Source of the DNA: the human T2T-CHM13v2.0 reference genome, Homo sapiens
Assembly (NCBI GenBank): GCA_009914755.4
Contig: CP068257.2
Span: 2,624,001 to 2,688,000 of the forward strand
Direction: 5' to 3'
DNA: 64,000 bases
Shown: positions 48,825 through 49,720 of the stretch, one piece after another
How positions within the stretch are numbered: the first letter of the stretch is position 1
Layout of the letters: every line of letters starts with the position of its first letter
Translations under genes and position numbers: made by a program
The notes under the pieces: model-generated
What the model was told of the DNA's origin: nothing
Database searches by the model: none
What the model saw: the letters and a program-made list of their open reading frames with translations, nothing else

Positions 48825-48970
48825 TCAAATATTTAGACATAGAATTACCATATGATTCAGTAATCCCACTCACATCTATAAATCTCTATATCTATATCTT
48901 TATCTACCTATATCTGTCTTCAAACGAATGGAAAGCAGTTACTCAAATAGATACTTGTACACCTGTGTTC

Positions 48971-49706
48971 TCTCCCCACCCCCCTTTTTTTTCTTTTTAA
49001 TAAATGGGGTCTCACTGTGTTTCCCAGGCCCGAGTGCAGGGGATGTTTATAGGCACGACCCCCTGCTGCGGGGCTGTCCACAGGCATGACCCCCTCCTGC
49101 GGGGCTGTTTATAGGCATGATCCCCCTGCTGCGGAGCTGTCCAGAGGCACGGACTCCTGCTGCGGGGCTGTCCACAGGCACGACCTCCCTACTGCGGGGC
49201 TGTCCACAGACACGACCACCTGCTGAGGGGCTGTCCACAGCCATGACCTCCAGCTGCGGGGCTGTTTACAGGCTTGATCCCCCTGCTGCGGGGCTGTCCA
49301 CAGGCACGGACCCCTGCTGCGGGGCTGTCCACAGGCAAGACCCCCTGCTGAGGGGCTGTCCACAGGCACGATCTCCCTGCTGCGGGGCTGTCCACAGGCA
49401 CGATCTCCCTGTTGCGGGGCTGTCCACAGGCACGATCTCCCTGCTGCTTGGCTGTCCACAGGCATGACCCCCTGCTGGTCAAACTGGAGTTGTGCCCTGC
49501 TTTGTCTCCAACCCAGGCCGGTTCTCCCCTCTTTAGGCAACCTGGTAGTCCCTTATCCCAGGAGGTCACTGTACTAATGTCTAATTTCGTGCAGACATCT
49601 GATCAACACAGCACCCTGCAGCCCAGGACTCCTGGGCTCAAGCGATCTTCCTGCCTCATATGCCTGAGTAGCAGGAACTACAGGCGCATGCCACCACACC
49701 TGCCTG
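48971..49706 (-). mobile_element. Alu-derived insertion with internal VNTR expansion, flanked by a 13-bp target-site duplication
   Basis: Identical tacacctgtgttc at 48958-48970 and 49708-49720. The flanks are collinear L1 ORF2 sequence (tacacctgtgttc…attgcagcatcacagcagcc). Reading the minus strand: an Alu right-monomer 5' part (ggcaggtgtggtggcatgcgcctgtagttcctgctactcaggcatatgaggcaggaagatcgcttgagcccaggagtcctgggctgcagg), then about 130 bp of non-Alu spacer, the VNTR, an Alu 3' end (ggcctgggaaacacagtgagaccccattt) and an A-rich tail. Confidence 0.7.
49036..49487. repeat. VNTR/minisatellite: about 13 tandem copies of a ~37-bp GC-rich unit (ggggctgtccacaggcacgaccccctgctgc)
   Basis: Thirteen successive ggggctgt(cc/tt)(ac/at)agg… units at a period of about 37 bp with point variants (cacgacc, catgacc, cacgatc, cacggac). 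The last three units are nearly identical. Confidence 0.9.
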
Positions 49707-49720
49707 CTACACCTGTGTTC

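What the first reader, a model, noticed from the sequence alone, without database searches (positions are those of the whole stretch)
48958..49720. Alu-derived retrotransposed unit carrying an internal VNTR of about 13 copies of ~37 bp, with a 13-bp target-site duplication, inserted in an old L1
tacacctgtgttc is duplicated at both ends, and the flanks are collinear L1 ORF2 sequence, so everything between was inserted as one unit. On the minus strand it reads: partial Alu right monomer, about 130 bp of unrelated spacer, a ~450-bp GC-rich minisatellite, then an Alu 3' end and A-rich tail. Either the VNTR expanded in situ within an Alu, or this is a member of a minor Alu-VNTR composite family, architecturally reminiscent of the VNTR core of SVA-type composites but with a different repeat unit. 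The last three units are nearly identical, which suggests recent expansion and likely length polymorphism.
Basis: partly seen in the sequence, partly recalled or inferred. Interest (0 to 1): 0.55.

Follow-up and report, generated by a model that had tools for sequence, protein, structure and literature searches.

The report
7SL RNA pseudogene with internal minisatellite
The insert is not an Alu-VNTR composite but one old, full-length retro-copy of the 7SL (signal recognition particle) RNA, in which a 31-32-bp piece of 7SL grew in place into a 14-unit minisatellite; its extra copies come from duplication of the surrounding DNA, so it is ordinary.

Summary
The structural observation holds. An exact 13-bp target-site duplication (48958-48970, 49708-49720) brackets a 737-bp insert in collinear L1 ORF2 sequence, and the insert holds a GC-rich tandem array. 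Two details are wrong: the period is 31-32 bp, not 37, and the "130-bp unrelated spacer" is the S domain of 7SL RNA.

Read on the minus strand, the insert is a full-length 7SL/SRP RNA retropseudogene. It matches Rfam Metazoa_SRP over model positions 1-299 (E 7e-15). A copy with only 2 units scores 98 bits, above the gathering score of 70. The repeat unit is 7SL nt ~230-262 and includes an 11-nt segment that Alu lacks. With the array collapsed to one unit, the insert is 300 nt and collinear with 7SL (77% identity), so it is ancient.

I retrieved 29 related contigs, and those whose records name a source are from human-associated metagenomes. None shows a different insertion site; every contig that reaches an end of the insert shows the same TSD and L1 flank there. 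This was one retroposition event, not a retrotransposon family. The copies differ by roughly 1-8% and carry 8-14 units (three contigs with 2-5 look collapsed), which fits segmental duplication. An FRG1-like exon 1 lies 44 kb away, and FRG1 is a known duplicated family in apes.

Verdict: a new member of a known kind (a minisatellite derived from a retroposed element). Interest is low.

The parts
49708..49720 (.). Target-site duplication, the copy at the 5' side of the insert (insert read on the minus strand): TACACCTGTGTTC, or GAACACAGGTGTA in the sense of the insert
   Evidence: Exact 13/13 match to 48958-48970. The same TSD is present in every related contig that reaches this end.
49605..49707 (-). 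7SL RNA nt ~1-100, the 5' half of the Alu domain.
   Evidence: Rfam RF00017 alignment starts at model position 1. Pairwise alignment to 7SL.
49478..49604 (-). 7SL RNA nt ~101-228, the S domain.
   Evidence: Aligned to the S-domain helices of Metazoa_SRP. Collinear with 7SL. Alu elements lack this part.
49069..49477 (-). Minisatellite of 13 full units of 31-32 bp, consensus CAGCAGGGGGTCGTGCCTGTGGACAGCCCCG. Each unit is homologous to 7SL nt ~230-262.
   Evidence: TRF, unit dissection, the repeat finder spacing of 31/32. The 25-mer core gives 11 hits against 0 expected.
49037..49068 (-). 14th, terminal unit (CAGCAGGGGGTCGTGCCTATAAACATCCCCTG), which continues in register into the 7SL 3' end
   Evidence: Alignment of the terminal unit plus the 3' end to 7SL nt 229-293.
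48999..49036 (-). 7SL RNA 3' end, nt ~263-299 (CACTCGGGCCTGGGAAACACAGTGAGACCCCATTTATT)
   Evidence: Rfam alignment of the paralogue L012 runs to model position 299.
48985..48998 (-). A-rich tail (AAAAAGAAAAAAAA)
   Evidence: Read directly from the sequence.
48971..48984 (-). G-rich stretch GGGGGGTGGGGAGA between the A tail and the TSD. The G-run length varies between copies (3-12 G).
   Evidence: Origin unexplained.
48958..48970 (.). Target-site duplication, the copy at the 3' side of the insert
48717..48957 (+). Old L1, ORF2 C-terminal coding region, left flank of the insertion
   Evidence: The empty-site translation aligns to human L1 ORF2p 1158-1259 across the junction, E 1.4e-9.
49721..50147 (+). 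Same old L1 continuing: end of ORF2 and the 3' UTR, followed by (AAAACA)4 at 50148-50171
   Evidence: TRF row 50148-50171.

Best explanation
A 7SL (SRP) RNA molecule was reverse-transcribed and inserted once, on the minus strand, into the ORF2 region of an old L1. This left a 13-bp target-site duplication and an A-rich tail. The result is a full-length 7SL retropseudogene, now about 23% diverged from 7SL and without sign of function.

Long after insertion, a 31-32-bp segment of the pseudogene (7SL nt ~230-262, the 3' strand of the Alu domain) was duplicated in tandem. It then grew in place, by slippage or unequal exchange, into a minisatellite of 14 units in this window.

The whole locus (L1 flanks, TSDs, 7SL, array) was later copied as part of a larger segmental duplication, most probably the FRG1-containing duplication family of apes. 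The paralogous copies have since gained, lost and mutated units independently, giving 8-14 units.

Status of each step:
- Shown: 7SL identity, the single insertion site, homology of the unit to 7SL, and several diverged copies that share the flanks.
- Inferred: L1-mediated reverse transcription, the slippage or unequal-exchange mechanism, and the link to the FRG1 duplication.
For: 7SL identity:
- Rfam Metazoa_SRP hit at 49394-49701 (minus strand), model 1-299, 61.8 bits, E 7e-15.
- The 2-unit copy L012 scores 98 bits, above the gathering score of 70. The extra unit appears there as a 31-nt insertion in the alignment.
- With the array collapsed to one unit, the insert is 300 nt and aligns end to end with the 298-nt 7SL sequence at 226/295 identities.
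- The unit contains GCCTGTGGACAGCC (7SL: GCCTGTGAATAGCC). The Alu at 48640-48680 reads GATCACGCC|ACTGCA and lacks that segment.

Retroposition:
- Exact 13-bp TSD.
- ORF2p alignment is collinear across the empty site.
- An A-rich tail is present.

Single event:
- 17 contigs were found with the array 25-mer and 12 through the array ORF.
- Every one aligns to the window's flanks, and none has a different insertion site.
- All 21 that reach both ends carry GAACACAGGTGTA at both ends with outer flanks GCTGCAAT / CAAGTATC. The partial contigs show the same TSD at whichever end they reach, except L013, which was matched only by flank alignment.

Expansion in place and later divergence:
- Unit maps differ between copy groups (ABBBCDEFGHIJKL in the window; CBiCCRDJCL; AYdUVWXPQ; and others) while keeping positional landmarks.
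- Maps are reproducible in independent samples: L022/23/24 have a 591-bp insert, L025/26 have 590 bp, and L018/L020 share one map.

Paralogy:
- Records named human gut, oral or other human metagenome hold at least 6 haplotype groups that differ by 1-8%, far above allelic diversity.

FRG1 link:
- Window 4743-4802 (minus strand) encodes MAEYSYAKSTKLVLKGTKTK, 19/20 identical to FRG1 exon 1, in a GC-rich block.
- FRG1 has 23 paralogues in T2T-CHM13, several about 97% identical (PMC9186530).
- The ape amplification is dated to about 17-27 Ma (bioRxiv 10.64898/2025.12.22.696095).
Against: - The window copy is below the Rfam gathering score (61.8 against 70), because the array breaks the 3' part of the model.
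- The nick site TGTTC|ATTG is a poor match to the L1 endonuclease consensus TTTT|AA.
- The A tail is followed by 14 nt of G-rich sequence, which is atypical.
The Rfam result is independent of it.
- Only 2 nt (CA) of microhomology flank the duplicated segment, so the initiating event is not explained by the short-direct-repeat model.
- The related copies come from low-coverage short-read metagenome assemblies. Some are chimeric (L016, L019) or look like mosaics (L001, L015), and short arrays (L005, L008, L012) may be collapsed.
- Contiguity of the duplicated segment with FRG1 was not shown. The related contigs cover only window ~45.2-58.2 kb.
- No outgroup without the array, or without the insert, was available.
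Confidence: 0.88

Rival explanations
1. One reading: the element belongs to a minor composite retrotransposon family (Alu/7SL-VNTR, SVA-like). The array was already present in the RNA that was reverse-transcribed, and the family spread by retrotransposition.
For: - The TSDs enclose the array together with the 7SL parts, so the sequence alone allows the array to have been in the template.
- Several copies do exist in human-derived DNA.
Against: - None of the 29 retrieved copies shows a different insertion site. All that reach an end share the same TSD and the same L1 flank there.
- If there were even a few independent insertions carrying these units, a search keyed only on the unit (25-mer, and the array ORF) should have found some.
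- Scans of genome contigs and viral contigs found nothing.
- The number and order of units change between copies, which shows in-place dynamics.
- The units share derived substitutions relative to 7SL, so expansion followed the decay of the pseudogene.
Confidence: 0.03
2. In-situ expansion within an ordinary Alu (or a free Alu monomer such as FLAM or FRAM), with an unrelated spacer acquired separately.
For: - The 5' ~100 nt and the 3' ~40 nt resemble Alu, because Alu derives from 7SL.
- Minisatellites derived from Alu are documented (PMC3389668).
Against: - The 'spacer' aligns to the 7SL S domain, in the right place and orientation.
- The unit carries the 11-nt 7SL-specific segment that is absent from Alu.
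- Collapsing the array gives exactly one 7SL length, 300 nt.
- There is no A-rich linker and no second monomer.
Confidence: 0.02
3. The related contigs are orthologues from many different primate hosts, or divergent alleles, rather than paralogues within one genome. The locus would then be single-copy, and the differences in unit number would be between species.
For: - Contigs L001-L017 carry no host label, and L013 and L016 are JGI samples of unknown host.
- The window itself differs from the nearest human-derived copy at about 11 fixed sites per kb. This looks like a species difference, so the window may come from a non-human great ape.
Against: - Records explicitly named human gut, oral or other human metagenome, several from one project (PRJEB21933), hold copies that differ from each other by 3-8%, with different unit maps.
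- That is far above human allelic diversity.
- FRG1-region duplications of about 97% identity are documented.
Confidence: 0.07

Closest known systems
7SL (SRP) RNA retropseudogenes (RepeatMasker/Repbase '7SLRNA', class srpRNA; Rfam RF00017 Metazoa_SRP); described by Ullu and Weiner 1984, cited from memory
   Same: Full-length collinearity with 7SL, including the S domain. Target-site duplication, A-rich tail, decay at CpG sites, and no sign of function.
   Different: It carries a 14-unit internal minisatellite made from 7SL nt ~230-262. The tail ends in a G-rich stretch. The nick site is a poor L1 endonuclease site.
Minisatellites derived from transposable elements or Alu (Jurka and Gentles 2006, as cited in PMC3389668; Ahmed and Liang 2012, PMC3389668)
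   Same: A contiguous internal segment of a retroposed element is repeated in tandem, in register with the parent. Expansion is slow and in place after insertion. Older elements have more, and more diverged, units. Unit number differs between related genomes or copies.
   Different: The parent is a 7SL pseudogene rather than an Alu, L1 or LTR. No flanking direct repeat of at least 5 bp is visible (only CA). The array has also been multiplied by segmental duplication.
SVA (SINE-VNTR-Alu) and related composite retrotransposons (LAVA, PVA, FVA)
   Same: Only a superficial resemblance in architecture: 7SL/Alu-like sequence next to a GC-rich VNTR, all inside one pair of TSDs.
   Different: There are no dispersed copies with their own TSDs, no CCCTCT hexamer repeat and no SINE-R. 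The unit is unrelated to the SVA VNTR. The 7SL part is sense and complete, not antisense Alu fragments. The insert is far older (about 23% diverged).
FRG1-containing segmental duplications of ape acrocentric and pericentromeric regions (PMC9186530; bioRxiv 10.64898/2025.12.22.696095)
   Same: Several copies within human DNA at about 92-98% identity. An FRG1-like exon 1 and a GC-rich block lie 44 kb from the element in the window.
   Different: Contiguity between the duplicated stretch that holds the element (shown for window ~45-58 kb) and the FRG1 exon was not demonstrated here.

Membership tests
7SL/SRP RNA retropseudogene | Collinear homology to 7SL RNA over its whole length, including the S domain that Alu lacks | tested here: met
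   Rfam RF00017 model 1-299, E 7e-15 in the window. 98 bits, above the gathering score of 70, in the 2-unit copy L012. 226/295 identities end to end after collapsing the array.
7SL/SRP RNA retropseudogene | Hallmarks of retroposition: target-site duplication and a 3' A-rich tail | tested here: met
   Exact 13-bp TSD. A 14-nt A-rich tail at 48985-48998, followed however by 14 nt of G-rich sequence.
7SL/SRP RNA retropseudogene | Insertion at an L1 endonuclease-type site (TTTT|AA on the nicked strand) | tested here: not met
   The nicked strand reads TGTTC|ATTG. This is a poor match, and it is a typical rather than a defining feature. The site may have mutated in an insertion this old.
Functional 7SL RNA gene | Reaches the Rfam gathering score with an intact secondary structure | tested here: not met
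   61.8 bits, below 70. Many non-canonical pairs, 23% divergence, and the array interrupts the 3' strand.
Alu / free Alu monomer | Lacks the 7SL S domain and the TGTGAATAGCC segment; the dimeric form has an A-rich linker | tested here: not met
   The S domain is present (49478-49604). The unit holds TGTGGACAGCC. The neighbouring Alu at 48640-48680 lacks that segment.
SVA-like composite retrotransposon family | Many dispersed copies, each at its own site with its own TSD | tested here: not met
   None of 29 contigs shows a different site. All that reach an end share the same TSD and the same L1 flank there. The sample is limited to host DNA in metagenome assemblies.
SVA-like composite retrotransposon family | Modular structure: hexamer repeat, antisense Alu-like part, VNTR, SINE-R | tested here: not met
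   The sequence reads as 7SL 5' part, S domain, array of 7SL-derived units, 7SL 3' end, tail.
Minisatellite derived from a retroposed element | The unit is a contiguous segment of the parent element, and the array sits in register within the parent | tested here: met
   The unit corresponds to 7SL nt ~230-262. The 5' boundary follows 7SL nt ~228, and the terminal unit runs on into nt 263-299.
Minisatellite derived from a retroposed element | Short direct repeats (5-20 bp) flank the repeated segment in the parent (Haber-Louis / Jurka-Gentles model) | tested here: not met
   Only CA (2 nt) is shared between the two boundaries (GAC|CAGCAG and CTG|CACTC). According to PMC3389668, most TE-derived arrays also lack such repeats.
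Minisatellite derived from a retroposed element | Unit number and order vary between related copies or genomes | tested here: met
   2-14 units across copies. Maps are reproducible in independent samples. Collapse in short-read assembly cannot be excluded for the shortest arrays.
Segmental duplication (FRG1 family) | Several copies in one genome that share kilobases of flank at about 90-98% identity | tested here: met
   Contigs from metagenomes labelled as human form at least 6 haplotype groups, 1-8% apart, and share flanks over window ~45.2-58.2 kb. That they come from one genome is inferred.
Segmental duplication (FRG1 family) | The duplicated block is contiguous with an FRG1 paralogue | not testable with these tools
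   The window has an FRG1-like exon 1 at 4743-4802, but no related contig spans from there to 49 kb. Complete assemblies are needed.

The most novel reading that the evidence does not exclude
The 7SL-derived minisatellite could serve as a paralogue-specific barcode of the FRG1-type segmental duplications on ape acrocentric and pericentromeric regions. On that reading, the mosaic haplotypes seen in some contigs (L001, L015: array and 3' flank of one copy group joined to the 5' flank of another) are real ectopic exchange or gene conversion between paralogues rather than assembler chimeras. The array would then be both a marker and possibly a breakpoint of exchange between non-homologous chromosomes.
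Probability: 0.12. Interest if true: 0.3.

Novelty: new member of a known kind. Interest (0 to 1): 0.14.

Why it matters
It matters little biologically. It is one more case of a retroposed small-RNA pseudogene seeding a minisatellite in place, here from 7SL itself rather than from Alu.

Its practical value is as a correction. An Alu-like 5' end, a "spacer" and an Alu-like 3' end together should be read as 7SL, not as a new composite element.

It also shows that multi-copy status can come from segmental duplication, here probably the FRG1 family, rather than from retrotransposition. The differing unit maps could help tell FRG1-region paralogues apart in read mapping.

Tried and rejected
1. Hairpin-driven slippage. 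Folding the array and single or double units as single-stranded DNA gave no excess stability (z +3.7 for the array, about 0 for the units). Rejected.

2. Recombination motifs. The array holds no PRDM9 13-mer, no Jeffreys core and no chi-like motif on either strand.

3. Dispersed family.
- The unit 25-mer scan of metagenome contigs returned only contigs that share the window's flanks.
- A 22-mer scan of genome contigs and viral contigs returned nothing.
- A protein-space search with the array ORF returned 16 clusters. All nine clusters whose encoding contigs were looked up (12 contigs) lie in the same context.

4. Other RNA families. No other Rfam family reaches its gathering score anywhere in the 64 kb.

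5. Identifying the window's own copy. Exact look-up of the two window ORFs that span the element found no record. The species, or which paralogue the window is, stays unresolved.

6. My first reading of L001-L017 as orthologues from many primate species. I dropped it once records labelled as human were found to hold the same diverse variants.

7. Literature. Searches for 7SL plus minisatellite or tandem repeat found no description of such an element.

8. Pfam. A scan of seven non-L1 ORFs elsewhere in the window found nothing.

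Full report
**1. What is in the sequence**

TACACCTGTGTTC occurs exactly at 48958-48970 and again at 49708-49720. It is the only direct repeat of at least 12 bp in 48700-50000 apart from the tandem array.

Removing the 737 bp between the two copies, plus one copy, joins the flanks into one reading frame. That frame aligns to human L1 ORF2p residues 1158-1259 straight through the junction (window DTCTPVF|IAA against ORF2p [10 protein letters not shown]), E 1.4e-9.

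Tandem Repeats Finder reports an array at 49051-49477 with periods 63 and 94, at 82% matches. These are 2x and 3x the real unit. Dissection gives 13 full units of 31 or 32 bp. A 14th unit runs on in register into non-repeated sequence. The array is 67% GC and CpG-depleted (18 observed against 48 expected).

**2. What the insert is**

Rfam RF00017 matches at 49394-49701, model positions 1-299, 61.8 bits, E 7e-15. The "spacer" is the S domain, the part of 7SL that Alu lost.

- from the first bases after the TSD to the start of the array (7SL nt ~1-228);
- from the last unit through the 3' end (7SL nt 229-293 and beyond).

Collapsing the array to its terminal unit gives a 300-nt sequence that aligns end to end with 7SL at 226/295 identities. 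The differences are 18 CpG transitions, 33 other transitions and 18 transversions.

The repeat unit (consensus CAGCAGGGGGTCGTGCCTGTGGACAGCCCCG) corresponds to 7SL nt ~230-262 (CAGTAGTGGGATCGCGCCTGTGAATAGCCACTG). It contains the TGTGAATAGCC-type segment. The Alu just upstream in the window reads GATCACGCC|ACTGCACTCC at 48640-48680 and lacks that segment.

A related copy with only two units (L012) scores 98 bits on RF00017. That is above the gathering score of 70, over model 1-299, and the extra unit shows as a 31-nt insertion.

After the 7SL 3' end come 14 nt of A-rich tail, then GGGGGGTGGGGAGA, then the TSD. The element is thus a full-length 7SL retropseudogene with an internal minisatellite made of its own sequence. 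It is not an Alu and not a composite with foreign sequence.

**3. Family or single event**

The 25-mer that spans a unit junction (GCCTGTGGACAGCCCCGCAGCAGGG) occurs in the window only inside the array: 11 hits at up to 3 mismatches, against 0 expected.

Searches for other copies gave the following:
- A scan of metagenome contigs with the 25-mer gave 17 contigs, L001-L017.
- A 22-mer scan of bacterial/archaeal genome contigs and of viral contigs gave none.
- A protein search with the ORF that runs through the array gave 16 clusters, all from ENA metagenome assemblies. Look-ups for nine of these clusters gave 12 more contigs, L018-L029.

Every one of the 29 contigs aligns to the window's own flanks. 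All 21 that reach both ends have GAACACAGGTGTA at both ends (the 3' copy sometimes reads ..GCA) and the same outer flanks, GCTGCAAT and CAAGTATC. The partial contigs show the same TSD at whichever end they reach; L013 was placed only by flank alignment. No copy with a different insertion site was found.

There was therefore one retroposition event. The "minor Alu-VNTR composite family" reading is not supported.

**4. Why there are several copies**

The records behind L018, L020, L022-L025, L027 and L028 are named human gut, human oral or human metagenome. Several come from one project, PRJEB21933. The DNA is therefore host (human) DNA.

These contigs fall into at least six haplotype groups that differ by about 1-8% in the flanks and the 7SL part. 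That is far above allelic diversity, so they are paralogues produced by duplication of the surrounding DNA. The shared stretch covers at least window ~45.2-58.2 kb (L017, L007).

The window also holds an FRG1-like exon 1 at 4743-4802 on the minus strand. It encodes MAEYSYAKSTKLVLKGTKTK, 19/20 identical to FRG1 as I recall it, and it sits in a GC-rich block.

What is published on FRG1 duplication:
- It is a segmentally duplicated family with 23 paralogues in T2T-CHM13, several about 97% identical, most with upstream CpG islands (PMC9186530).
- A first duplication from chromosome 4 to the acrocentric short arms is dated to 24.8-27.4 Ma.
- The extra copies coalesce at 16.8-20.9 Ma, and there are 12-39 copies per ape haplotype (bioRxiv 10.64898/2025.12.22.696095).

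The divergences seen here fit that history. I infer that the 7SL element travelled with this duplication, but I did not show contiguity.

**5. Which genome the window comes from**

The closest copies (group A: L013, L016, L018-L021) differ from the window at the same ~11 sites per kb (49448, 49258, 49127, 49043, 49019, 49004, 48993, 48984, 48894, 48858, 48691). That is 1.1-1.5%. The window's own ORFs are not on record.

A young L1 at 16.7-19.6 kb has an ORF2 C-terminus almost identical to human ORF2p, which points to a hominoid genome. The window is therefore either the orthologue in a non-human great ape or a human paralogue that was never sampled. I cannot tell which.

**6. History of the array**

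Units were typed by sequence, with at most 1 edit counted as the same type.

| Copy | Unit map | Units |
|---|---|---|
| Window | ABBBCDEFGHIJKL | 14 |
| L018, L020 (two independent human gut samples) | ABBBCDEFGHIJKM | 14 |
| L021 | ABBCDEFGHIJKM | 13 |
| L016 | ABCDEFGHIJKM | 12 |
| L022, L023, L024 (three independent samples, 591-bp insert each) | CBiCCRDJCL | 10 |
| L004 | AYdUVWXPQ | 9 |
| L025, L026 (590-bp insert each) | AhdUVWXPQ | 9 |

Maps that recur in independent samples argue that these arrays are real. The 2-5-unit arrays of L012, L008 and L005 look like first and last units joined, and may be assembly collapses.

Landmarks are shared by distant groups: a CCTGTAAACAG unit in the middle, and a ..CTCC[GC] unit followed by GGGGGATCATGCCTATAAACAG near the end. 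An array of several units therefore predates the duplications.

Within the window, units differ by a mean of 5.3 edits per ~31.5 nt, and each unit differs from the 7SL segment by 8-12 edits. Most units share several derived changes, such as GAATAG to GGACAG and CCACTG to CCCCG. Expansion therefore began from an already decayed pseudogene, that is, in place.

The three near-identical units at 49351-49446 have the same diagnostic variants (CAACAGG in the middle one, CCCT at the end of the third) in L018 and L020. They are at least as old as the 1.1-1.5% divergence, not a lineage-specific recent burst. The 3, 2 or 1 copies of this unit among group A contigs hint at length polymorphism, but this is not proof.

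**7. Mechanism**

- *Shown:* one insertion with a TSD and an A-rich tail; an array that is in register with its parent; change in unit number between copies.
- *Inferred:* reverse transcription by the L1 machinery; birth of the array by a tandem duplication with minimal microhomology (only CA is shared by the two boundaries, GAC|CAGCAG and CTG|CACTC); growth by slippage or unequal exchange.
- *Consistent with the literature:* Ahmed and Liang report that 23% of human minisatellites and satellites derive from transposable elements, that they expand slowly in place, and that only about 6% are explained by flanking direct repeats or truncated terminal units (PMC3389668).
- *Tested and rejected:* hairpin-promoted slippage (no excess DNA fold stability) and PRDM9, chi or Jeffreys-core motifs (none).
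- *Unexplained:* the nick site TGTTC|ATTG is a poor L1 endonuclease site, and the tail ends in a G-run whose length varies between copies (3-12 G).
- *Function:* nothing suggests one. The window copy is below the Rfam threshold and about 23% diverged. K2P distance, computed by hand from the counts, is about 0.29, or about 0.24 without CpG sites. At ordinary mammalian rates that implies an insertion of the order of 100 Myr old; this date is an inference.

**8. Comparison with what is known, and verdict**

The element is a member of the 7SL retropseudogenes: the collinearity, S-domain, TSD and tail tests were met. It is also a member of the class of minisatellites derived from retroposed elements.

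It is not an Alu, because the S domain and the 7SL-specific segment are present. It is not SVA-like, because there are no independent insertions and none of the SVA modules.

I found no description of a 7SL pseudogene-derived minisatellite in the searchable literature, but the phenomenon is well known for Alu and other elements. I rate it a new member of a known kind, with low interest.

The decisive checks need complete primate assemblies. They are: copy count and positions, an outgroup state without the array, and per-paralogue unit counts in long-read data.

Noticed in passing
window 4743-4802 (-), GC-rich block 4001-6000: An FRG1-like first exon (MAEYSYAKSTKLVLKGTKTK, 19/20 identical to FRG1 as recalled, V7A) sits in a block of 54% GC that looks like a CpG island. 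The window therefore lies upstream of FRG1 or one of its many ape paralogues.
   Followed up: partly
window 16734-17621 (-) and 17909-19606 (+): Two long open ORF2 pieces of a young L1 lie in opposite orientation. One matches RVT_1 at E 4e-48. The C-terminal piece is almost identical to human L1 ORF2p. This is either an inversion of the twin-priming type or two adjacent insertions.
   Followed up: no
window 48971-48998 and the same position in L001-L029: The A-rich tail of the 7SL insert is followed by GGGGGGTGGGGAGA. The G-run varies from 3 to 12 G between copies, so it behaves as a mononucleotide microsatellite. The inferred nick site TGTTC|ATTG is a poor L1 endonuclease site.
   Followed up: partly
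window 44983-45543: A long CT-rich, low-complexity stretch gives spurious ORFs of SFFL repeats. GC skew is -0.26 and AT skew -0.29 over 44-46 kb.
   Followed up: no
L001, L015, L016, L019: L016 and L019 are rearranged or chimeric contigs. L001 and L015 combine informative sites of two copy groups. These are either assembler chimeras between paralogues or real gene conversion.
   Followed up: partly
L022, L023, L024 (7SL 5' part): One paralogue, seen in three independent human samples, carries a 17-bp deletion in the 5' Alu-domain part of the 7SL copy and has a 10-unit array.
   Followed up: no
L007 ~2828-3098 against window ~55400: There is an Alu-sized (~270 bp) presence/absence difference between the window and a paralogous copy.
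   Followed up: no
window 52352-52777 (-): A 141-aa ORF (…WFENNDVQGWIRSHLGNG…NEWPVYEGLQNGSPHTQNDRQEWHRRL…) resembles a transposase fragment by eye but has no Pfam match at E<=0.01.
   Followed up: partly
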